Shown: positions 5,747-35,336, numbered from the stretch's first letter. The stretch: 64,000 bases of DNA from Escherichia phage vB_EcoM-ZQ1 (MW650886.1); one strand, 5' to 3'. The notes: generated by a model not told the origin, from the sequence alone. Numbers and translations are program-made.

Positions 5747-5944
5747 ATGTTCAGGTTCAAGATCTACAAAGAACGAAACTCGTTCAAATTCGGTGTCGTC
5801 GCTGGGGTGTGTTTCTTCCTGACGATCGAAAACGTGATCGGGCTGCTCACAATACCACAAATGCAGATAACCCGATTTGTCCTTGCTATCGTATTCGCCG
5901 CTATCGGCTTGGCCTGTAGTTATATGGGCTGCATGAAGAAGTAA
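5747..5944 (+). CDS. small membrane protein (two predicted TM helices)
   Basis: 65-aa ORF with two hydrophobic stretches (VVAGVCFFLTI...; FVLAIVFAAIGLA). Confidence 0.4.
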   Translation: MFRFKIYKERNSFKFGVVAGVCFFLTIENVIGLLTIPQMQITRFVLAIVFAAIGLACSYMGCMKK

Positions 5945-5986
5945 TTTCACTACACACAGCAATACTTTGATTTGAGAAACTACATC

Positions 5987-6475
5987 ATGATGCTGTTAAT
6001 GAGCGTTCCACAGAACAAGATGACCCCTGCAACAGAGGGCAAGAATCACTTCAACATCTACAGCCGGAGCCAGACGGAACTCGGGCGCTTCCTCTCGCAT
6101 TTTACCCATCATCCAATGACTACCCATGAACATGGTGTGTTTAACTCCATGGAGGGGTACTGGTATTGGCTGAAGTATAGGGATGACAACCTGCGCCTGC
6201 TCGACGGTTATGAGGCCAAGCAATATGGACAGGGATTGGCGGCTTCCCGCGTCATTGTCCTGGACCCGTCTACCGAAGAATTCAAGCGCGATATCCTATT
6301 TGCAACTAGCATGAAACTCCAGACAATGCCTGAACGTCTGAAGATCAGATTGGCGTACAGTCGCCTACCCCTGATCCATGCATATGTTCAGAACGGGAAA
6401 TACAGTTTTCAAAACTCTATGGACTATATCATTGCCCACATTAATCGTCTCCGCATACAAGGAACTTTGAAATGA
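5987..6475 (+). CDS. hypothetical protein
   Basis: ORF track begins at TTG 5972; first ATG is at 5987. Confidence 0.45.
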   Translation: MMLLMSVPQNKMTPATEGKNHFNIYSRSQTELGRFLSHFTHHPMTTHEHGVFNSMEGYWYWLKYRDDNLRLLDGYEAKQYGQGLAASRVIVLDPSTEEFKRDILFATSMKLQTMPERLKIRLAYSRLPLIHAYVQNGKYSFQNSMDYIIAHINRLRIQGTLK

Positions 6476-7053
6476 AATTTCTACACACTATCGTCGACAC
6501 TTCTTATGACTGCACTGCTCATACCCCAGACCGTTCGCCTGTGTTTGTTCTGAACAAACTAGGTGAAGAGATCTGTGAACTGTCTGATGTGTTTCATGGC
6601 ATAGTATCTTCCGAGCCGTTGAATGGCGAAGTTGCTGATGTCATTATCTCTGCTATTGACCTTCTGTACGTCATGGATTATGACGACGTCCAATTGCGCG
6701 GCTCTCTGAACAAGGCCGAAATGATCGACTCTGTCATCAACCACATGGCGACAGTGAACGATATTTCTTCTAATCTGTTGGAAGAAGACTGGTTCCGTCT
6801 GATTGATCGTGATCCTCAAAAGCATCTGAATCTTATCCATCATTATCATGGCCGGATTATCCGATTGTGCAACCAGCCTTATCGCAGTCAAGACAGATTG
6901 GATCAACTCGTCAATGACCTAATCAAGCATGTTGCGCGCATGGGGTGTGGGGAAGGGGCGATACGTGGATCCTCTTTGATGGCCACTCGCATTAAAGTGG
7001 AGCACGCTATTGAACACAAGGTTGAAAAGTGGCGTACTGAATTTGGCTTATGA
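6472..7053 (+). CDS. MazG-like all-alpha nucleoside triphosphate pyrophosphohydrolase candidate
   Basis: ATGA overlap with the upstream gene; motifs LGEEICELSD (E-E-x-x-E) and GEVADVIISAIDLL (E-x-x-D) typical of MazG/HisE-type NTP-PPases. Confidence 0.4.
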   Translation: MKFLHTIVDTSYDCTAHTPDRSPVFVLNKLGEEICELSDVFHGIVSSEPLNGEVADVIISAIDLLYVMDYDDVQLRGSLNKAEMIDSVINHMATVNDISSNLLEEDWFRLIDRDPQKHLNLIHHYHGRIIRLCNQPYRSQDRLDQLVNDLIKHVARMGCGEGAIRGSSLMATRIKVEHAIEHKVEKWRTEFGL

Positions 7054-7319
7054 ATAACATACAACCTTGGGAACACCCGACTGTCGTAAAGACGGGTAAA
7101 TCCCGACAATGGCTCTTGGCTGGTGAATTCTTTGAATGGTGGTATAGTAACGGTGAAGACAAAGTGAAGAACCGTTATTGTTTAATGTTGAAAGAAACCG
7201 GGTTAAGCTCTGTGTGTTCTAAGGCCACAGCACAAACTTGTATATCTAAATTTCAGAAAGGTTGGATACCAAAAGAAGATTCCGCCTGGTTGAAATTTTA
7301 CGGAGATAATAATGGTTGA
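7050..7319 (+). CDS. hypothetical protein
   Basis: 89-aa ORF, ATGA-coupled to the upstream gene. Confidence 0.4.
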   Translation: MNNIQPWEHPTVVKTGKSRQWLLAGEFFEWWYSNGEDKVKNRYCLMLKETGLSSVCSKATAQTCISKFQKGWIPKEDSAWLKFYGDNNG

Positions 7320-9210
7320 TGTAAACAGAAAATACAAAAAGCTCTCACACATCGAGCATATACTCCTTCGCCCAGAGCGCCATCTAGGGAGTATCCGTTC
7401 TTCTGTCGGGATGGCTTGGGTATATGATCTCAGCAAAGACAAAGTTGTGTTTAAAGACAATTTTGAATATAACCCCGCTCTTATCAAACAGTTTGATGAA
7501 ATCATCACCAACTGTGTTGACCACAGCAAGACCCCTGAGGGCAAATCCCTGACGGAAATCACCGTCACAGTTTCCCCGATGAACGGTCAAATCATCGTTG
7601 CTGACAACGGGGGTATCCCTGTGGTCAAGCATGAATCTGGTATGTGGTTGCCAGAAATGTTATTTTCAGAATTGTTTGCTGGATCGAACTTCAACGACGA
7701 AGACGAAGAGTACAACAACCAGAAGTCCGGTGGTCAGAATGGCGAAGGGGCGTCCCTCGTCAACGTGTTCTCCAAATGGTTCCGCGTCACGACTAATGAC
7801 GGCAAGAAGTCTTATACTCAGACGTTTGAAGACAACATGAGCAAGAAATCTAACCCAGTCATCAGCAACGTGAACAGTCCTGGCACATCCATCGCCTGGA
7901 TCCCTGACTATGCTCGTCTGGGCGTCAAAGGACTTGACCAGAACAACCTGCTGATGATCTATCGCCGCGCGTTTGAAGTGGCTGCGTGTAACCCGCGCCT
8001 GAAGATTGTTCTCAACGGGAAGCAAATCCGGATTGACCGCTTTGGCCATTTCGTTGATTACTTCCATGCTGGCTCGGCTGTTGACGAAACCGGGGATTGG
8101 TCTGTTGCTGTAGCCCCTTCATCCGGTACGTTCATGCACGCATCATACGTGAACTCTATTGCCACCCACATCGGTGGTCCTCACGTTGATTATGTTGCCG
8201 ACCAGATCGTGGCAGCGATTCGTCCCCAGCTGGTGAAGAAGTTCAAGACCGAGCTGAAGCCAGCAATGATCAAGAACCACATGTCCTTGTTCATCGCTGC
8301 CGACATCAACAACCCGCGCTTTGACAGCCAGACCAAGGAGCGCATGACCACTCCTGTCAGCCAGTTCGGTACGTCGTACAAGCCCAGCGATAAACTGATC
8401 CGCAAGGCGCTTGAGTTCGTTACGGCTGGTCTGAGCAAAGAACTGGCTTCCCTACGCAATGAGCAGGATGATGCTGAGTTTGAAAAGGCCAAGAAGGATA
8501 TCAGCAAGCGGGATTATCGTGAGATTGAGAAGTATTACCCGGCGACCGCCCGTGGTGACCGCAGCGGATGCTCCTTGCTGCTGACCGAGGGTGATAGTGC
8601 ATCCAACCCTATCCTGAACGCCCGTGACACCAAGAAGATCGGGTTGTTCCCGCTTCGTGGTAAGTTCATCAACTGCCTGAACGCCCCGCGCTCAAAGGTG
8701 ATGAACAATGAAGAGTTCAAGAACCTGTGTACGATCCACGGCGGCGCAGTGCCAGGCCAGCCCCTTGATATCACCCGTTACCCACAGACTGTTGTGGCTA
8801 CCGATGCGGACGATGACGGCATCCACATCCGTGGGTTGTTGATCACCCTGTATTGCACCTACTGGCCGGAGTACGTCCGTCAGGGCAGGCTGAAGCTCCT
8901 GCGCACCCCTTACATGCGTGTGTGGTGTGGTAAGGTGATGCATGAGTTCATGAACAACGCCGAGTATGAGGAGTTCCTGAAGACTCCCGATGCCAAGAAG
9001 ATCACGAAGAAGAAATATCTGAAAGGTCTGGGTGGTAACAGCACTGAAGACTTCAAACGTATTCTAAACAACCTGGATGCGTATACTACGACAGTCACGC
9101 TGGACGATGGCTACCAACAGTCACTGAAGAATGGCTTCGGTGATGAGGCCGCCGATTACCGCAAAACCTGGTTTAGCGATGTTTGTCTATTTGAGACTGA
9201 GGATGAATAA
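7312..9210 (+). CDS. DNA topoisomerase II large subunit (T4 gp39-like, probably including the gp60-equivalent region)
   Basis: 632 aa; GyrB-type ATPase N-terminus (LSHIEHILLRPERHLGS), Toprim-like region (LLLTEGDSAS...DADDDG). Confidence 0.85.
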   Translation: MVDVNRKYKKLSHIEHILLRPERHLGSIRSSVGMAWVYDLSKDKVVFKDNFEYNPALIKQFDEIITNCVDHSKTPEGKSLTEITVTVSPMNGQIIVADNGGIPVVKHESGMWLPEMLFSELFAGSNFNDEDEEYNNQKSGGQNGEGASLVNVFSKWFRVTTNDGKKSYTQTFEDNMSKKSNPVISNVNSPGTSIAWIPDYARLGVKGLDQNNLLMIYRRAFEVAACNPRLKIVLNGKQIRIDRFGHFVDYFHAGSAVDETGDWSVAVAPSSGTFMHASYVNSIATHIGGPHVDYVADQIVAAIRPQLVKKFKTELKPAMIKNHMSLFIAADINNPRFDSQTKERMTTPVSQFGTSYKPSDKLIRKALEFVTAGLSKELASLRNEQDDAEFEKAKKDISKRDYREIEKYYPATARGDRSGCSLLLTEGDSASNPILNARDTKKIGLFPLRGKFINCLNAPRSKVMNNEEFKNLCTIHGGAVPGQPLDITRYPQTVVATDADDDGIHIRGLLITLYCTYWPEYVRQGRLKLLRTPYMRVWCGKVMHEFMNNAEYEEFLKTPDAKKITKKKYLKGLGGNSTEDFKRILNNLDAYTTTVTLDDGYQQSLKNGFGDEAADYRKTWFSDVCLFETEDE

Positions 9211-13484: not shown

Positions 13485-13826
13485 ATGAAACGTTCGGTTG
13501 TTGTAAATGACATCACGAGATTGATAAACCTTGTCAAAGATGTGTTTCCACAACAGGTGGATGTCGAGTACGTGGGGAAGAACGGGAAGTGCTATCAGGT
13601 TGCTCTACTTCTGAAGCACGTGTATCCCCAAGCAGAGATACATTACAGTCAGACCGAAGGTCATGTGTATACTCTGATTGATGGGCATTACTACGACATC
13701 GACGGCATCCACTTCAGTGTCCCACCGGATACGTGTTTGCTCGAACACAACAGAGGCCATAAACCCCATCGCTGGCATAAAGGGTTTGTGAACGTACCGA
13801 TTTTAGAATGGTTGAGGAGACCATAA
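13485..13826 (+). CDS. hypothetical protein
   Basis: ATG at 13485 preceded by GGAGAGG and downstream of the terminator; the ORF-track start at 13398 lies inside the terminator. Confidence 0.4.
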
Positions 13827-14386
13827 TGGCAGGAATTGTGAAGTATCTGGGAGACACCCACCTTGGGCACAAGAAGATCTTCAAGCCCCGTGGGTTCGAT
13901 ACCCAAGAGGCGCATGATGCTGCAGTTATCGACAGTATCTTTCAGGGGCTGAAGTCTCGAGACGTCCTTGAACTTGCAGGCGACATCTGCTTCATCGGGG
14001 CTGAGGGGTTCATTCGCCTGATGCGCGAGGGTGCCAAGCGGAATATTGATGAGTTCAAGCGCCGCCCGGTTCCCGATGACTGGCGACCGAACTTTATCAT
14101 CAGGGTGGCGCAAGGCAACCATGACAGATTCAAGATGTTGATGCAGCTGTATCAAGAGGGATGGATTAGCTCCTTTGGTGCGATGTATGAGCGTGATACC
14201 CCGGTTGGTTGTGTGCTGACCACTCACGTTCCTTATCAATTAGGCCGCTGGGCTTATAATATCCATGGTCATCTTCACAGTAAAATGCGTGAAGAACGTG
14301 AATACCTGAACTGCAGCTGGGAACAATTCAAGCGCCCTGTGACATTGGCCGAGCTGCTCTACACCAATCTGGGGATTGAAATATGA
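13826..14386 (+). CDS. calcineurin-like metallophosphoesterase
   Basis: TAATG overlap start at 13826; motifs YLGDTHLGH (GDxHG), AGDICFIG (GDxx), QGNHD (GNHD/E), HGHLH. Confidence 0.65.
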
Positions 14387-15105: not shown

Positions 15106-15420
15106 ATGACCCCATTAAAAGAAATGTATGAGCGTCTGGCTGAACTACAGGCGAAGGAAAAGCGCTTCTCAGAAGAAGAGTCTGAAATCGCCGAGCTGAA
15201 CAACCTGATTGCCACTCGTGAGAAGTACCTGCATCGCTACATTAATCACCCGCCGCGCATGGTAGACCGCGTCAGCACTATCATGGACCTGGATGAAGTT
15301 ACTCCTGGCAAAGAAATCATTGTCAGGGAAGTCCACCAGATGGTCGCCATGGGTCAGATCTTTGGTCGTGCAGACCAAGACGACATGATCTTCCTCCTTG
15401 AAAAGAAACTGGTGATGTGA
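15106..15420 (+). CDS. hypothetical protein
   Basis: 104-aa ORF with AAGAGG RBS. Confidence 0.45.
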   Translation: MTPLKEMYERLAELQAKEKRFSEEESEIAELNNLIATREKYLHRYINHPPRMVDRVSTIMDLDEVTPGKEIIVREVHQMVAMGQIFGRADQDDMIFLLEKKLVM

Positions 15421-15926
15421 TGGCTATCAAACCCCGTATGTTATTTGCGCATATGCGCTCGGCTCATGCATACGCTCTGTCCAGCTATGCCCAGCGCCTG
15501 AAGGTCGGCTGTGTTATCGTTGACCCGCGTGTTGACCAGCCCCTGTCTATCGGTTGGAACGGGACTGCTCCTGGCGCTCCTAATGTCTGTGAGAAGGAAG
15601 TAGACGGTCAACTGGTATCGGTGGGTGTTATCCACGCCGAGGAGAATGCTCTGAGCAAACTCCCCCAGCACACTGAAGACTGTTGTGGCCTGGTGATGTT
15701 TGTCACTCATAGTCCATGCCCAGAGTGCACCCGTCGTATTATCGGCAGTGGCAAGATCGCTAAAGTATTCTATGACCGACCATATCGTATCATAGACGGC
15801 ATTATTGAAATGCTGGCTGCTGGGATTGAAGTGTATCGCATGGTCGATCAGATTGTTGTAGTCCAGCATTCTGTGAAGAACGGCGAACTGGTATCCACCC
15901 CTGTTTTAGTGAACCCTGACAAATAA
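15420..15926 (+). CDS. dCMP deaminase (cytidine/deoxycytidylate deaminase zinc-binding family)
   Basis: HAEENAL (H-A-E) and SPCPEC (P-C-x-x-C) zinc-binding motifs; start overlaps the upstream stop (GTG at 15417, ATG at 15420). Confidence 0.8.
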   Translation: MAIKPRMLFAHMRSAHAYALSSYAQRLKVGCVIVDPRVDQPLSIGWNGTAPGAPNVCEKEVDGQLVSVGVIHAEENALSKLPQHTEDCCGLVMFVTHSPCPECTRRIIGSGKIAKVFYDRPYRIIDGIIEMLAAGIEVYRMVDQIVVVQHSVKNGELVSTPVLVNPDK

Positions 15927-30582: not shown

Positions 30583-30912
30583 CTACCCCACCAAAAATTT
30601 ATTATATTCCTGAGCATTACGCTGCATGAGGTCTACAAGGATATCCCCTGACACCTCAGTGAACAAGTCATTTTCTTTCAAATTCACAAACATCAGACGC
30701 AATGGTTTCTTCAATATATCAGTCACGAAAGACAGGCGGGGTTCGCCGTCCACTTCGTTGATGGCCACCTTGCCGAACCTGAATTGAACACCACGGAATT
30801 TGCCAGAAGTGATCTTGATGATCGCCAGCTGATCAGCACCAGGGTCGATGATTGTGTAGTTATTGGGGGAGTCTCCTCCCCCTCCACTGTTATTCGCTTG
30901 TGTTAATAACAT
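30583..30912 (-). CDS. hypothetical protein in the position of T4 gene 40
   Basis: small ORF between uvsX and gp41; ORF-track start 30963 overlaps uvsX, a later ATG is more likely. Confidence 0.4.
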   Translation of the reverse strand: MLLTQANNSGGGGDSPNNYTIIDPGADQLAIIKITSGKFRGVQFRFGKVAINEVDGEPRLSFVTDILKKPLRLMFVNLKENDLFTEVSGDILVDLMQRNAQEYNKFLVG

Positions 30913-31975
30913 GGTCCATTTGCTCCAGCATGTTAGCAGGCATAACAGTACCGTTAGAAACACCGAACATTTTCTTCACGTCATCGGCGAAGTTGACATT
31001 CTCCAGCAGCGGATACCAGAAATCATCATCCATCTGACGCTTCTGATATTTCTTTTCCTTCTCAGGATCGAAACCACCCTTGGTTGTACGCACATACCAA
31101 CCGGAAGACGGCATATCAACATAACCCAGAGCACGAGCGATCTCAAGCAGGCCGCTCCAGCGATCAATACCGCCGTTGTACAGTACCGTCACAGGGAGCT
31201 TGGCTTTCTCTTTGACATGGCGACCTTTCATGATGCTTATGTTGAAGTTCCAGCCCAGCAGATCTTTGTCTTCCTTCACCTGAGAACGGGTGATAAACCA
31301 GATCAAGTTGGAGGATAAGAAGCCCTGCTTGCCGCCTTTGATGTTAGGCTCGGCATATTGGTTGCCGATCTCATCGTAATAGGAGTTGATCCAAACACAC
31401 ACGAGATTTTTGCTATTGATTTCAGGAGTCATGACACGCCAGAAGCTGTTGAGGGCACGGGCGCGGGTCATGTCTTGAGTGTCGTTCCCTTTGATCGCAT
31501 CTTCAACTTCCTTGGTGGAGGGAAGTTGGCTGATAGAGTCGATGAAGATTATAACATGGTCGCCTTTCTTGACTTCCTGTAGGATCTGCAGCAAGCGGAT
31601 CTTGGTCTGTTCAACGTTGTCGATCGGTACGTACAGGACGCGGTCCATGTCAATGCCCATAGAGGTCCAGTAATCAGCGTTGGCACCCTTTTCCGAGTCA
31701 GCAAATACACAGATAGCATCAGGGAACTTGTCCATATAAGCCTTGACATCGACCAGGCCGAACATCGTTTTGAAGGTACGGGAATCACCCACCATCATCT
31801 TGATACCGGAGATCAGGCCGCCGTCAATACGCCCAGACCATGCGATATCGATCAGGGGAATACCAGTAGAACAGATGATAGACGGTTCCAGAGCGTCGGA
31901 TTTGGACAGCACTGAAGCCTGGTCATCGTGTTTCTTAGCAACCTTCAGCATGCGATCCATTAATGAACTGGCCAT
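30890..31975 (-). CDS. uvsX: UvsX recombinase (RecA/Rad51 family)
   Basis: 361 aa; extended collinear similarity to T4 UvsX from recall (GIPLIDIAWSGRIDGGL..., ICVFADSEKG..., VIIFIDSISQL..., MTRARALNSFWR...). Confidence 0.9.
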   Translation of the reverse strand: MASSLMDRMLKVAKKHDDQASVLSKSDALEPSIICSTGIPLIDIAWSGRIDGGLISGIKMMVGDSRTFKTMFGLVDVKAYMDKFPDAICVFADSEKGANADYWTSMGIDMDRVLYVPIDNVEQTKIRLLQILQEVKKGDHVIIFIDSISQLPSTKEVEDAIKGNDTQDMTRARALNSFWRVMTPEINSKNLVCVWINSYYDEIGNQYAEPNIKGGKQGFLSSNLIWFITRSQVKEDKDLLGWNFNISIMKGRHVKEKAKLPVTVLYNGGIDRWSGLLEIARALGYVDMPSSGWYVRTTKGGFDPEKEKKYQKRQMDDDFWYPLLENVNFADDVKKMFGVSNGTVMPANMLEQMDHVINTSE

Positions 31976-32502
31976 TTCACTTCCTCTTTGTTGTTAATCG
32001 TCGTTAGTAAGTCTACACCCATAACCTTCTGGGACAAAATGTTAACCGCCTCTTGGATGCTCTTCAGGGACATTGTCTCAACAAGTGACGATGCGTCATT
32101 ATGCCGGTCGGTTAGGTACATATTGCGCAGATTGTTGTAGTTCGTGCGGTTGATGCACGCAGTGTTCAGTGCTATATTCAGGATATACATCATCTGTTCA
32201 ATGGTTATATCCTTTGGTATAGCGTGGATGTAATAGATCGAGCCTTCAAAATAGACGTCTACCAGTTCATCTGGTATCTTGGCCCCACCACCGGCATAAT
32301 CTTCGATCATCCTGAACAGAGACTCTGGTTGCTCGCTGGCGATCTTATGCGTAACAGTCGCCGAAAGACCGTCGCCCGGTTTAACAGGCCTGGTGTATTC
32401 GGTAAGGAATACATTATGTCCGCCGCCGATGATGTGCTCGGCGAATTTGGAGGATGCCTGAGCAGCGTTCTCCGCATGGTATGAAACGACGACTGTAAAC
32501 AT
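31960..32502 (-). CDS. hypothetical protein (in the position of T4 beta-glucosyltransferase, no recognisable similarity)
   Basis: 180-aa ORF coupled between the NTP-PPase-like gene and uvsX. Confidence 0.45.
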   Translation of the reverse strand: MFTVVVSYHAENAAQASSKFAEHIIGGGHNVFLTEYTRPVKPGDGLSATVTHKIASEQPESLFRMIEDYAGGGAKIPDELVDVYFEGSIYYIHAIPKDITIEQMMYILNIALNTACINRTNYNNLRNMYLTDRHNDASSLVETMSLKSIQEAVNILSQKVMGVDLLTTINNKEEVKWPVH

Positions 32503-33056
32503 TAGAACTCCAGGGTCAGAGGGGTTTCTGCGGACTTGTCGTAATCCGCACCACCAGAAGCACGCAGACGATTGCGATCGTTCTTGCGTTTGTGTGCCAG
32601 TATGTAAGTCTCAATGTCGATCTCCATATAAGAACACGCAGACGACAGGAAGAACATGAGAGTCTCAACGCAAGGATCGTTCATGAATTGCCCAAGGCGG
32701 TACGTAACATTGCGATGCCCTACAACACCCAAAGCAGATGGGGTGAATTCGCGATTACTAAGGACTTCAAATTCTTCTTCGATCTCACCTTTGGTGCGGT
32801 CCACAAGGATGAAGCACAACATGAAGTGTACCACGTCCACCAGCTCATAAACTGCGTTCGTATGGTCAAACCCGATGTCGTTGCCATAGACCTTCCAGTC
32901 ACGGGTGGTTTCATCAAGGAACTCTGCCCACTCACGATAGATAGAGTTGATGACTGCGTTCTGACTCCATACATTCTTCCACTCTTCCCCAAAGTAGGCC
33001 ACGTTAGTGGCCTTTTGGAGTTCGAGCAGGCTTTTGATATGTCCTGCTGTGATCAT
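32502..33056 (-). CDS. all-alpha NTP pyrophosphatase candidate (dimeric dUTPase/dCTPase-like)
   Basis: acidic helix motifs (FGEEWKNVW ... YREWAEFLDE); ATGA-coupled to dNMP kinase; family assignment tentative. Confidence 0.4.
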   Translation of the reverse strand: MITAGHIKSLLELQKATNVAYFGEEWKNVWSQNAVINSIYREWAEFLDETTRDWKVYGNDIGFDHTNAVYELVDVVHFMLCFILVDRTKGEIEEEFEVLSNREFTPSALGVVGHRNVTYRLGQFMNDPCVETLMFFLSSACSYMEIDIETYILAHKRKNDRNRLRASGGADYDKSAETPLTLEF

Positions 33057-33622
33057 TTACGTTCTCCGTAGAATTTAACGAACGGTTCCCAACCATCAAA
33101 TGGATTGAGGAATTCGTAGTCCACTTTCATTTGGTCAATGAAAGCCTCTATATCGTCCTCTATGATACCAGCACGGTCGGCCTTTGAAATACGGGTGATA
33201 GGGCATTTCGTACTCAGCGCCCATTCATATTCCTGAGGGGTACGCAGATCACTCACGATATAATGGACGTGGGGGTTCTGCTCTACCAGAGGAAGCTGGA
33301 AGCGCTTGAAGAATGCCAGGAACAGATCGGGTTGTACGTAACGCAAGCCCGTATCGCTGCCTAGATGAAGCCAGATCTGCCGTGGAGTTAAGCCCTTGGG
33401 ATTATCAGGGTGCACGTAAGGAACGTCCTTCACGGCATCCTCTACCTCCGCTGGGAGCCATGGGTAGATGTAGTTGGCTACACGGCGCAGTTCATCAGAG
33501 AAAGAAAGGCGCTGTATGTCCATATCACCCTGTAAGTGGTGGTAACTGATCAGGGACTCCAAACAGAAGTCCTTACCGGAGCGCTTGCGCCCCGTAAAGA
33601 ATTCAAGATTTGGGTACATCAT
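33053..33622 (-). CDS. deoxynucleoside monophosphate kinase (T4 gp1-like)
   Basis: N-terminal P-loop FFTGRKRSGKD resembles the T4 gp1 signature. Confidence 0.7.
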   Translation of the reverse strand: MMYPNLEFFTGRKRSGKDFCLESLISYHHLQGDMDIQRLSFSDELRRVANYIYPWLPAEVEDAVKDVPYVHPDNPKGLTPRQIWLHLGSDTGLRYVQPDLFLAFFKRFQLPLVEQNPHVHYIVSDLRTPQEYEWALSTKCPITRISKADRAGIIEDDIEAFIDQMKVDYEFLNPFDGWEPFVKFYGERK

Positions 33623-34665
33623 ACTACACCTTCCAGGAACTTAGGATCAATGATCTTGCGGTCAACCGGGGAATGGGTGAGCGCGGTGTTCAAGCCATGA
33701 TCCTGAATCAGGTCCAGGTTAATGAGCTTTTCGTTCAGTTTACAGTGCAGACAGTACGCCATCTGTACAATCAGGCCGCGATCCGCATCGTATTCCTTCA
33801 GGTGAGCAACCACAGTTTCCCACGGGCTACCGATATCACAGTGATGAAGCACACCAGTGAACAGATTGCGGATATGGTTCTGGTTGGTCACGTTCGTGAA
33901 GTGAATCATGGAGTTGATGAACCCAGCTTCTACTTTGGTGTCCTTCGTGATCTTTCCCAGCTGCTTCTGGCTGACTTCATTGTTGTAGTAATGAAGATTG
34001 TTAGAGAATAGCTTGTACTGACCGACATCAACATCCAGCACCCGAGCAATCACTTCCTGAAGAATAGAGAACTCAATGAAGTTAATTGAACTCATCCCCC
34101 ACAGAACATCCTGTGAGCGGTTGATGACCGTCAGGTTCAGACGACCTTCAACGATGGCGAACAACAGAGCCAGGTTACACACCATGTCCTTAGTCTTTGC
34201 TTCGCCGCTCTCGCTGAACTTCGCCAGACCAGCATCCGAATCTAGAGCCGGGTCATAGATGGTGAGGTACGCCTGGCGAGTGTTTGGGTTCTTGCGCAGG
34301 CGGTTGATAACGCTATCCAGCTGGCCATGGGCGTACAGACGCGGACCATAAGCAGCTCGCCATGTTACCCCATCATCCGAAAAGTTAGCAGCGCGAGGCA
34401 ATACGCGTGACAGGAACTTTATGTCGTTGCGACCTGACAACACCCAGAAGGTCTCGCCGATGGCAGCGATAGCCGATGAGTTGCGACCTTCAACGGAGAG
34501 CCAGCGGTCACGAATATCGGAAACAGTGATCGTCACACCATCAAGGAAGCGGGTGCTATCAGTATTGATTTCAGCATTACCAGGATCAGATTCGATCCCG
34601 AATTCACGGATAGCCAAGACAGCCTGCTTCAGCATGTCATTGTTGTTAATTGCTTTGATTTCCAT
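33619..34665 (-). CDS. thymidylate synthase / pyrimidine hydroxymethylase family enzyme with about 100-aa C-terminal extension
   Basis: ThyA-fold motifs: ETFWVLSGRND, RKNPNTRQAYLTIYDP, catalytic-Cys region DMVCNLALLF (VCN instead of PCH), NRSQDVLWGMSSINF (R-S-x-D ... N); occupies the T4 gene 42 position. Confidence 0.75.
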   Translation of the reverse strand: MEIKAINNNDMLKQAVLAIREFGIESDPGNAEINTDSTRFLDGVTITVSDIRDRWLSVEGRNSSAIAAIGETFWVLSGRNDIKFLSRVLPRAANFSDDGVTWRAAYGPRLYAHGQLDSVINRLRKNPNTRQAYLTIYDPALDSDAGLAKFSESGEAKTKDMVCNLALLFAIVEGRLNLTVINRSQDVLWGMSSINFIEFSILQEVIARVLDVDVGQYKLFSNNLHYYNNEVSQKQLGKITKDTKVEAGFINSMIHFTNVTNQNHIRNLFTGVLHHCDIGSPWETVVAHLKEYDADRGLIVQMAYCLHCKLNEKLINLDLIQDHGLNTALTHSPVDRKIIDPKFLEGVV

Positions 34666-35336
34666 CAGATACTCCCAAAATCACGACAGAGGAATGCCAT
34701 CACAGCCTGGTCTACTGTTAGGCCGTGAGACTTCATCATACCCGCAGCCACCGTAGGGAACAAGTCTTTATGTCGTTGACGATGGTCATGAACTCTCTCC
34801 CACTTCTCGACCACCAGACTTTCATTGAAGTCCACACCGCCGTTACGTGATTTAACACGAGCGATACACGTTTCAAGAGGAGTGTCCATAAAGAGCACAA
34901 CCAATTCACGTGGTGGGCGTGTCAGACGGGGGATCCAAGAACTCAATAATGTGGATGGAATGATACCTTCGAAAATCACATCATATTTCAAGTATTCTGG
35001 TTGGTCAGCAATAGACAACGCGAACAACATCTGCTCAGTGTCCTTCAGGGAATCAACCCCCTTGGACTTCGACTTGTCATATTTACCGATACAGACCACG
35101 TTGAACGAAGGACAGACAGTCAGCATGACCTTGCCGTTATGGGTCACGACATACGCCTGAGGATCCCTCTCCGCCAGCTGAGACGGCACAGTGGATTTAC
35201 CGCTACCATTGGAGCCTTTGACGTAGTAGATTTGCCCTCGTGCTGGGTAGATCCCCTTTACGACGGGTGGTTTAAAGAATGTGTGGACGGGGCGCTTCAT
35301 CAGCCCCTTCAGGGAGTAGGACATAAACTGCTCCAA
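34665..35336 (-). CDS. P-loop kinase of unassigned specificity
   Basis: Walker A YYVKGSNGSGKST; coupled by 1-nt overlap to the ThyA-family gene. Confidence 0.55.
   Translation of the reverse strand: MEQFMSYSLKGLMKRPVHTFFKPPVVKGIYPARGQIYYVKGSNGSGKSTVPSQLAERDPQAYVVTHNGKVMLTVCPSFNVVCIGKYDKSKSKGVDSLKDTEQMLFALSIADQPEYLKYDVIFEGIIPSTLLSSWIPRLTRPPRELVVLFMDTPLETCIARVKSRNGGVDFNESLVVEKWERVHDHRQRHKDLFPTVAAGMMKSHGLTVDQAVMAFLCRDFGSI

What the first reader, a model, noticed from the sequence alone, without database searches (positions are those of the whole stretch)
6472..7053. Two separate all-alpha NTP pyrophosphatase candidates
Both 6472-7053 and 32502-33056 carry acidic helix motifs of the MazG/dimeric-dUTPase superfamily. 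T4 has one such enzyme (dCTPase gp56). Two copies would be consistent with excluding two different canonical dNTPs from phage DNA, which fits the modified-pyrimidine hypothesis.
Basis: inference. Interest (0 to 1): 0.4.

Follow-up and report, generated by a model that had tools for sequence, protein, structure and literature searches.

The report
Two all-alpha nucleotide pyrophosphatases, one duplicated
This phage, from a family that replaces thymine in its DNA, really does carry two unrelated nucleotide-triphosphate-cleaving enzymes of the same all-helical superfamily: one is an ordinary dUTPase built into the base-modification operon, and the other is an uncharacterised enzyme made by fusing two copies of a small MazG-like protein.

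Summary
The window comes from an Agtrevirus-like Ackermannviridae phage, a family known to replicate with 5-hydroxymethyl-dU in place of T.

The new point is that ORF1 is a tandem duplication of a ~105-residue MazG-like unit. The N-terminal half keeps the metal site. The C-terminal half has lost it but keeps the NQPxR and KxxKW motifs.

The single-unit ancestor sits upstream of topoisomerase II in T4-like phages, including one that carries a true gp56. ORF1 is therefore not specific to hmU phages, and "two excluded canonical dNTPs" is unlikely. Which enzyme removes dTTP remains untested.

The parts
6472..7053 (+). ORF1, 193 aa. An uncurated all-alpha NTP pyrophosphohydrolase candidate formed by tandem duplication of a MazG-like unit.
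6484..6699 (+). ORF1 N-terminal MazG-like unit (residues 5-76). It carries the presumed metal-binding residues E32, E33, E36, E53 and D56 (bases 6565-6639).
   Evidence: The profile of the short family A6 hits residues 5-76 with i-E 1.1e-15. hhalign of the N-half against A6 gives E 4.3e-25. The acidic residues are invariant.
6805..7044 (+). ORF1 C-terminal degenerate MazG-like unit (residues 112-191). The acidic positions are replaced by H124, Y125, R128 and L146. It retains N134-Q135-P136-x-R138 and K183-x-x-K186-W187.
   Evidence: The A6 profile hits residues 112-191 with i-E 8.6e-4, and 34 of 35 family members show two hits. hhalign of the C-half against A6 gives E 1.2e-13 with a residue-by-residue register. 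The retained residues are invariant.
32502..33056 (-). ORF2, 184 aa. A dimeric (all-alpha) dUTPase of the dUTPase_2 family.
33053..33622 (-). dNMP kinase, presumed 5-hmdUMP kinase. Its stop overlaps the ORF2 start by 4 nt.
   Evidence: PHROG 139 at 1.2e-47. Coordinates.
33619..34665 (-). Thymidylate synthase homologue of the dUMP hydroxymethylase type.
   Evidence: Pfam PF00303 at 1.1e-15. PHROG 3676 at 4e-183. The family is assigned to hmdU synthesis in PMC3184105.
34665..35324 (-). 5-hmdU DNA kinase (HMUDK).
   Evidence: Pfam PF18748 at 1.5e-108.
31960..32502 (-). Phage ACT-like domain protein, immediately downstream of ORF2. Function unknown.
   Evidence: Pfam PF24021 at 3e-78.
15417..15926 (+). 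dCMP deaminase, a second supplier of dUMP.
   Evidence: Pfam PF00383 at 9.1e-16.
7312..9210 (+). Topoisomerase II large subunit (gp39-like). It is the positional anchor shared with the single-unit MazG-like genes of T4-like phages.
   Evidence: ORF found. Annotation of relatives. Synteny shown.

Best explanation
The window belongs to an Ackermannviridae (Agtrevirus-like) phage that replicates with 5-hmdUTP instead of dTTP. It encodes two enzymes of the all-alpha NTP pyrophosphohydrolase superfamily that are unrelated in sequence and have different histories.

(1) ORF2 is a canonical dimeric dUTPase, in the same Pfam family as T4 gp56. Its start and stop codons overlap those of its neighbours in the hmU module. 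It most likely hydrolyses dUTP/dUDP to dUMP plus PPi/Pi on a Mg2+ cluster held by E42, E45, E71 and D74. That would feed the adjacent dUMP hydroxymethylase and keep uracil out of DNA. It may also hydrolyse dTTP, as Kutter et al. proposed.

(2) ORF1 is a single-chain pseudo-dimer made by tandem duplication of a ~105-residue MazG-like unit. In T4-like phages that unit is a separate small gene just upstream of topoisomerase II. The N-terminal repeat keeps the metal-binding EExxE...ExxD residues. The C-terminal repeat has lost them but keeps the NQPxR loop and the KxxKW helix end, which the N-terminal repeat has lost. The result is probably one composite active site per chain and an overall fold like a dimeric dUTPase monomer. 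ORF1 is most likely an active (d)NTP pyrophosphohydrolase whose base specificity differs from ORF2, because I see no counterpart of ORF2's QxxxN and HF motifs in it.

Shown here: gene reality, folds, motifs, the duplication and the synteny. Inferred: catalysis, substrates and the composite site.

My estimate for which enzyme removes dTTP: ORF2 about 45%, ORF1 about 25%, neither or another mechanism about 30%.
For: - Identity of the phage: 97-99% nucleotide identity to Agtrevirus genomes.
- ORF2 context: start/stop overlaps with its neighbours. The module hydroxymethylase, dNMP kinase, dUTPase, small ORF, UvsX is conserved in PhiW-14 (E 6e-22) and in Vibrio phages (E 2e-33).
- ORF1 conservation: invariant acidic and basic residues down to 24% identity.
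- ORF1 duplication: both halves match the short family A6 (E 4e-25 and 1.2e-13). 34 of 35 family members give two hits, and the best control hit is 0.2.
- A6 is MazG-like: it matches solved MazG-like proteins (2GTA at 3e-4, 5IE9, 1VMG, 2Q73, 7ODY), and one member passes the Pfam MazG cut-off.
- Position of the single-unit genes: directly upstream of gp39 in Aeh1 and in three metagenomic T4-like contigs.
- Literature: ViI-type phages first make DNA with 5-hmdU fully replacing T, and hmU phages need dTTP removal (PMC8989533). CBA120 does not incorporate 3H-thymidine (PMC3184105).
Against: - No enzymatic data exist for either protein.
- ORF1 has no direct significant match to any curated family or to any PDB sequence (best E 0.12-0.24).
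- Foldseek E-values against PDB were not significant (0.2), although the top hits were dimeric dUTPases.
- The composite-site idea rests on sequence register and an AF2 model whose coordinates I could not inspect.
- The C-half match in the window protein alone is modest (i-E 8.6e-4). It becomes strong only at family level.
- The A6 sequences were selected by similarity to the ORF1 profile, so a small selection bias towards the C-terminal KxxKW motif is possible.
- The statement that ORF1 lacks uracil-binding residues rests on a helix-by-helix correspondence, not on a structural superposition.
Confidence: 0.7

Rival explanations
1. One reading: each enzyme excludes a different canonical dNTP (for example dTTP and dCTP) from phage DNA.
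For: There are two superfamily members in one genome. T4 gp56 excludes dCTP and belongs to ORF2's Pfam family.
Against: Only thymidine is replaced in this family, and CBA120 does not substitute cytosine (PMC3184105, PMC11721090). ORF2 conserves the residues that align with the dUTPase motifs of 1W2Y. The ORF1 lineage occurs in T4-like phages regardless of modification type.
Confidence: 0.07
2. Division of labour within the hmU pathway. ORF2 is a strict dUTPase/dUDPase, and ORF1 is the missing dTTPase that empties the dTTP pool while sparing 5-hmdUTP.
For: A dTTP-removing activity is required (PMC8989533, PMC3184105), and its gene was not identified in PhiW-14 (PMC5977210). ORF1 keeps a full catalytic motif but lacks counterparts of ORF2's QxxxN and HF motifs. 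The duplicated form is confined to Ackermannviridae, all of which carry the hmU module. PhiW-14 also carries a separate MazG-domain protein, gp207.
Against: The ancestral single-unit gene is present in phages not known to use hmU. PhiW-14 gp207 is not detectably homologous to ORF1. No ORF1 homologue was found in the rIIB-proximal region of a Vibrio phage that has the hmU module, though only 27 kb of it was examined. From my own knowledge, not checked here: in Bacillus phage phi-e one enzyme is reported to do both dTTP and dUTP hydrolysis.
Confidence: 0.25
3. ORF1 is no longer an enzyme. It would be a structural, regulatory or moonlighting protein (some records call it 'viral tegument-like protein'), as dimeric dUTPases of staphylococcal phages moonlight in SaPI derepression.
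For: There is no curated family match. It evolves faster than ORF2 (dN/dS 0.21 against 0.08). One of its repeats has clearly lost the catalytic residues. Its neighbour is annotated as a virion structural protein in one record.
Against: All five acidic residues, together with R21, K29, N134, Q135, R138, K183, K186 and W187, are invariant across homologues of only 24-29% identity. That pattern is typical of an active site. The 'tegument-like' name is an unsupported annotation label.
Confidence: 0.08
4. The two ORFs are chance open frames, or recent paralogues from a gene duplication.
For: None beyond their similar length and helical composition.
Against: Both show purifying selection and are conserved in hundreds of genomes. 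hhalign finds no similarity between the two families (E 0.15 and 0.056).
Confidence: 0.01

Closest known systems
Dimeric (all-alpha) dUTPases, Pfam PF08761: C. jejuni 1W2Y, L. major 2YAY, S. aureus phage 5MYD, and T4 gp56 dCTPase/dUTPase
   Different: ORF2 sits in an hmU operon, not at the gp56 locus. ORF2 and gp56 are similar only around motif 3 (E 0.005). ORF1 has no sequence match to PF08761, and profile-profile comparison with ORF2's family finds nothing. I found no counterpart of the QxxxN and HF motifs in ORF1.
Short MazG-like NTP pyrophosphohydrolases: B. subtilis YpjD 2GTA, 5IE9, S. solfataricus 1VMG, integron iMazG 2Q73, cyanophage S-2L MazZ 7ODY
   Same: Each half of ORF1 is homologous to a ~105-residue phage family (A6). 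That family matches these solved proteins and the Pfam MazG model. ORF1 shares their EExxE...ExxD metal motif.
   Different: Those proteins are single units that assemble as oligomers. ORF1 is two fused units with complementary loss of motifs. It is about 193 aa long and does not itself reach any MazG model threshold.
E. coli MazG (3CRA), a chain with two tandem MazG domains
   Same: Two MazG-like units sit in one polypeptide. From my own knowledge, not tested here: only one of the two E. coli domains is needed for catalysis.
MazG-like gene upstream of gp39 in T4-like phages (Aeromonas phage Aeh1 Aeh1p006 and metagenomic relatives)
   Same: It occupies the same genomic position (immediately before the topoisomerase II large subunit) and carries the same unit (A6 profile E 5e-31; ORF1 N-half profile E 1e-18).
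   Different: It is a single unit, in Aeh1 with an unrelated 58-residue N-terminal extension. It is not duplicated, and its hosts are not known to use hmU.

Membership tests
All-alpha NTP pyrophosphohydrolase superfamily (MazG / HisE / dimeric dUTPase) | All-helical bundle fold matching solved members | tested here: met
All-alpha NTP pyrophosphohydrolase superfamily (MazG / HisE / dimeric dUTPase) | Conserved acidic metal-binding residues on two adjacent helices (ExxE ... ExxD) | tested here: met
   ORF1 E32, E33, E36, E53 and D56 are invariant. ORF2 E42, E45, E71 and D74 are invariant and aligned to 1W2Y.
All-alpha NTP pyrophosphohydrolase superfamily (MazG / HisE / dimeric dUTPase) | Mg2+-dependent hydrolysis of the alpha-beta phosphodiester of (d)NTPs | not testable with these tools
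   This needs a recombinant enzyme assay.
Dimeric dUTPase (Pfam PF08761 dUTPase_2): ORF2 | Score above the curated Pfam gathering threshold | tested here: met
   36.9 bits against a cut-off of 22.9. All but one of the 42 listed homologues carry a precomputed PF08761 hit.
Dimeric dUTPase (Pfam PF08761 dUTPase_2): ORF2 | Family sequence motifs: QxxxN in helix 1, ExxE plus WK, ExxDxxHF, and a C-terminal K/N/R cluster | tested here: met
   Q14, N18, E42, E45, W54, K55, E71, D74, H77, F78, K156, N159 and R163 are invariant. The first three motifs align to 1W2Y. The roles of individual residues are from my own knowledge.
Dimeric dUTPase (Pfam PF08761 dUTPase_2): ORF1 | Sequence match to the family model or to solved members | tested here: not met
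   No Pfam hit at E up to 1. No PDB dUTPase hit by phmmer or by profile. hhalign against ORF2's family gives E 0.15 and 0.056.
Dimeric dUTPase (Pfam PF08761 dUTPase_2): ORF1 | Uracil-recognition motifs (QxxxN, HF) | tested here: inconclusive
   By helix correspondence the equivalent positions are T10/S11/Y12 and I59/S60. The former are not conserved in the wider family. No structural superposition was available to confirm the correspondence.
MazG (Pfam PF03819): ORF1 | Match to the MazG domain model | tested here: inconclusive
   A direct match fails: 0 hits for ORF1, and the best hit among 10 family members is 0.024. The link through intermediates is strong: ORF1 halves to A6 (E 4e-25 and 1e-13); A6 to YpjD 2GTA at 3e-4; the A6 member P0108 scores 25.7 bits on PF03819 against a cut-off of 22.
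T4 gp56 dCTPase/dUTPase orthologue: ORF2 | Orthology to gp56 and dCTP hydrolysis | tested here: not met
   Same Pfam family, but pairwise similarity is limited to 17-21 residues and the genomic context differs. A real gp56 orthologue is 65% identical to T4 gp56. dCTPase activity was not tested.
5-hmdU (thymidine hypermodification) nucleotide pathway | Presence of dUMP hydroxymethylase, dNMP kinase, 5-hmdU DNA kinase and dCMP deaminase | tested here: met
   PF00303 and PHROG 3676, PHROG 139, PF18748 at 1.5e-108 and PF00383. The pathway is described in PMC8989533.

The most novel reading that the evidence does not exclude
ORF1 defines a previously undescribed architecture. It is a single-chain pseudo-dimeric MazG in which the two repeats have lost complementary motifs and rebuild one active site, converging on (or tracing the origin of) the dimeric-dUTPase fold. 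In Ackermannviridae this remodelled enzyme would have become the long-sought dTTP pyrophosphatase that clears dTTP but spares 5-hmdUTP, working beside the dUTPase of the hmU operon.
Probability: 0.2. Interest if true: 0.6.

Novelty: new variant of a known kind. Interest (0 to 1): 0.35.

Why it matters
Phages that swap thymine for 5-hmdU must remove dTTP and supply dUMP. The dTTPase activity has been known biochemically for decades (PhiW-14 and the Bacillus hmU phages), yet its gene was not identified in the PhiW-14 genome paper (PMC5977210).

This work narrows the candidates in Ackermannviridae to two defined proteins. It shows that the operon-embedded dUTPase is the one that travels with the hydroxymethylase across distant phages.

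It also shows that the second protein, labelled inconsistently in public genomes as 'hypothetical', 'tegument-like' or 'MazG-like', is a fused double MazG unit with one intact and one degenerate site. That gives a concrete, testable example of how an oligomeric MazG can become a dUTPase-like single chain, and it gives clear mutagenesis targets.

The practical gain is modest: better annotation of a core gene in about 280 therapeutic-candidate phage genomes.

Tried and rejected
- **Recent paralogy of ORF1 and ORF2.** Rejected. hhalign gave E 0.15 (A1 against A2) and 0.056 (the broader alignments A3 against A5).
- **A third copy in the window.** None found. The only extra hit (15106-15420, E 0.16) is a coiled-coil-like 104-aa ORF with no Pfam match.
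- **An ORF1 orthologue in PhiW-14, which has biochemically shown dTTPase activity.** None found. Its MazG-domain protein gp207 is unrelated at HMM level.
- **An ORF1 homologue in a Vibrio phage with the hmU module.** None found in the 27 kb examined. The whole genome was not searched.
- **Aeh1 as a second phage with two all-alpha enzymes.** Rejected. Its dUTPase is the trimeric beta-fold type. A metagenomic T-even-like contig does carry both gp56 and the MazG-like unit.
- **Literature on ORF1.** No paper in the library characterises it. The LIMEstone proteome paper does not mention it.
- **Internal N-half against C-half similarity of ORF1.** Not detectable directly (E 0.089). The duplication is visible only through the intermediate short family.

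Full report
**What is there.** ORF1 is 6472-7053 on the + strand (193 aa). ORF2 is 32502-33056 on the - strand (184 aa).

The window is 97-99% identical at the DNA level to Agtrevirus-type Ackermannviridae phages: Escherichia phages A221, PC3 and RPN242, Salmonella phage vB_CECAV_050 and Enterobacter phage fGh-Ecl02. Both genes are core to that family. tblastn finds full-length homologues of ORF1 in about 276 phage records and of ORF2 in about 348.

Both are under purifying selection. dN/dS against the Dickeya phage LIMEstone1 orthologues is 0.21 for ORF1 and 0.08 for ORF2. Local profile searches of all six reading frames found no third copy in the window.

**ORF2 is an ordinary dimeric dUTPase inside the hmU operon.**
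- It passes the Pfam dUTPase_2 gathering threshold (36.9 bits against 22.9) and hits PHROG 173 at 6e-40.
- A profile of its family hits the Campylobacter jejuni dUTPase 1W2Y at 3.4e-6. The alignment matches Q14, N18, E42, E45, W54-K55, E71, D74 and H77-F78.
- T4 gp56 falls in the same Pfam family (25.4 bits) and shares the ELVDxxHF motif. The two are otherwise barely alignable, so ORF2 is a family member and not a gp56 orthologue.

On the minus strand, ORF2 overlaps its neighbours' start and stop codons. The gene order is:
1. 5-hmdU DNA kinase (PF18748, 1.5e-108)
2. thymidylate synthase homologue of the dUMP hydroxymethylase type
3. dNMP kinase
4. ORF2
5. ACT-like protein
6. UvsX

A dCMP deaminase lies at 15417-15926. 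The core of the module (hydroxymethylase, dNMP kinase, dUTPase, small ORF, UvsX) recurs in Delftia phage PhiW-14 (gp231-235; ORF2-family HMM against gp233 gives 6e-22). It also recurs in a group of about 66 Vibrio phages (E 2e-33). This clade of dimeric dUTPase therefore travels with the hydroxymethylase.

Kutter et al. (PMC3184105) already listed a dUTPase/dUDPase in CBA120 and showed that the phage does not incorporate 3H-thymidine. They proposed that this enzyme is also a dTTPase/dTDPase. Lee et al. (PMC8989533) state that ViI first makes DNA in which 5-hmdU fully replaces T, and that hmU phages deplete dTTP with a dTTPase and a dTMPase.

**ORF1 is the less obvious protein.** It matches no Pfam or NCBIfam model. 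No member of its wider family reaches a Pfam threshold. Its best PDB sequence match is the cyanophage MazG-like MazZ at E 0.12-0.24. PHROG 1247 ('MazG-like pyrophosphatase') matches at 2e-34. Public records call it hypothetical, 'viral tegument-like' or MazG-like.

An exhaustive profile search of 1.84 billion representative proteins found only 35 relatives. The full-length relatives, at 24-29% identity (for example Serratia phage phiMAM1 MAM_191), occupy the same position between the rIIA/rIIB region and topoisomerase II. Across that divergence the following residues are invariant: P19, R21, K29, E32, E33, E36, E48, E53, D56, D63, N134, Q135, R138, K183, K186 and W187. The acidic set is the EExxE...ExxD signature of the superfamily.

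**ORF1 is a tandem duplication of a MazG-like unit.** The weaker hits of the exhaustive search are proteins of 96-118 aa. Aligned together as A6, they share these motifs:
- P-x-R
- K-L-x-E-E-x-G-E
- N-x-P-x-K
- E-P-L-x-G-E-x-A-D
- a C-terminal K-x-x-K-W

Profile-profile comparison shows that both halves of ORF1 match this unit. Residues 5-95 match at E 4.3e-25 and residues 112-193 at E 1.2e-13, in a register that runs residue by residue. The two halves do not match each other directly (E 0.089).

An HMM built only from the short proteins hits 34 of 35 ORF1-family proteins twice. Controls (ORF2's family and reversed sequences) give nothing better than 0.2.

The two halves have lost complementary motifs:

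| Feature | N-terminal half | C-terminal half |
|---|---|---|
| Acidic metal-binding positions | kept (E32, E33, E36, E53, D56) | mostly replaced (H124, Y125, R128, L146; D149 stays acidic) |
| N-x-P-x-K loop | lost | kept (N134-Q135-P136-x-R138) |
| K-x-x-K-W helix end | lost | kept (K183-x-x-K186-W187) |

I infer one composite active site per chain.

The short family is itself MazG-like. Its profile hits YpjD (2GTA, 3e-4), 5IE9, 1VMG, iMazG and MazZ, and one member passes the Pfam MazG threshold.

The short genes lie immediately upstream of the topoisomerase II large subunit in T4-like phages. Examples are Aeromonas phage Aeh1 Aeh1p006 (A6 profile 5e-31) and three metagenomic contigs. ORF1 occupies the same position, which supports descent by in-place duplication and fusion.

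The superfamily assignment and the modified-pyrimidine context are right. The inference that two enzymes mean two excluded canonical dNTPs is not supported, for four reasons:
- Only T is replaced in this family (PMC3184105, PMC11721090).
- dUTP is not a canonical dNTP.
- The two proteins are not duplicates of one another.
- The ORF1 lineage exists in T4-like phages whatever their modification. Aeh1 has a trimeric dUTPase. Contig L021 has a gp56 orthologue 65% identical to T4 gp56 together with the MazG-like unit.

That last point also lowers, without excluding, the attractive idea that ORF1 is the dTTPase. PhiW-14, where dTTPase activity was shown biochemically and no gene was assigned (PMC5977210), has the ORF2-type dUTPase plus an unrelated MazG-domain protein, gp207.

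**Mechanism I commit to.**
- ORF2 hydrolyses dUTP/dUDP to dUMP on a Mg2+ cluster. This feeds the hydroxymethylase next to it and sanitises the pool. It possibly also cleaves dTTP.
- ORF1 is an active (d)NTP pyrophosphohydrolase with a single composite site and a base specificity different from ORF2's. It acts early in infection (inferred from its position in the rII-topoisomerase gene block) on the dNTP pool.
- My split for the dTTP-removing activity is ORF2 about 45%, ORF1 about 25%, and neither about 30%.
- Catalysis and substrates are inferred. Folds, motifs, the duplication and the synteny are shown.

**Novelty and score.** ORF2 is already known and annotated. ORF1's superfamily label already exists in some annotations. 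I did not find its double-unit architecture, its complementary motif loss, its dUTPase-like fold or its positional ancestry described in the searched literature. I rate the finding as a new variant of a known kind, of modest interest.

Noticed in passing
window 7050-7319 (+): The ORF between ORF1 and topoisomerase II is only the C-terminal 89 residues (188-276) of the 276-aa HNH homing endonuclease found at this site in all close relatives. Exactly 561 bp (187 codons, including the HNH motif) are missing. The junction lies at an ATGAA/ATGAAA microhomology, so the remnant starts at the internal Met188 and still overlaps ORF1's stop codon. None of the 50,697 phage records holds this junction as a contiguous sequence.
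   Followed up: yes
window 31960-32502 (-): A 180-aa 'Phage ACT-like domain' protein (PF24021, 3e-78) overlaps the ORF2 coding region by one base. A small ORF also sits at this position in PhiW-14, and a 204-aa ORF sits there in Vibrio phage K414. ACT domains usually bind small ligands, so it might regulate the nucleotide module. Its function is unknown.
   Followed up: partly
window 34665-35324 (-) and relatives: The 5-hmdU DNA kinase (PF18748, 1.5e-108) is misannotated in public relatives. LIMEstone1 calls it 'putative thymidylate kinase'. Some PHROG-based annotations (P46FS4, Vibrio phage K414) call it 'terminase small subunit'.
   Followed up: partly
window 13808-14386 (+): A 192-aa ORF whose motifs look like those of a calcineurin-type metallophosphoesterase (GDTHLGH ... 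GNHD ... HGHLH). It is annotated 'phosphoesterase' in relatives and has a counterpart in PhiW-14 (gp216). It had no significant Pfam hit in my scan. It could be considered as a candidate dTMPase/nucleotidase of the hmU pathway. This was not tested.
   Followed up: no
window 5900-7400 versus 31900-34700: The best-matching public genome differs between regions: A221 at 99.0% around ORF1, and fGh-Ecl02 at 98.4% with A221 at only 96.7% around ORF2. ORF1 also diverges much faster than ORF2 across the family (about 50-55% against about 60% identity to Kuttervirus-type phages). This suggests mosaicism or uneven evolutionary rates.
   Followed up: no
L012 29562-30581 (PhiW-14 gp207) and 30638-31315 (gp208): PhiW-14 encodes a 339-aa protein with a C-terminal MazG domain (PF03819 at 26.8 bits, PRA-PH at 30.5 bits). 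Next to it is a gene shared with the hmU siphoviruses M6 and YuA (per the record's note). It is a possible candidate for the unassigned PhiW-14 dTTPase.
   Followed up: partly
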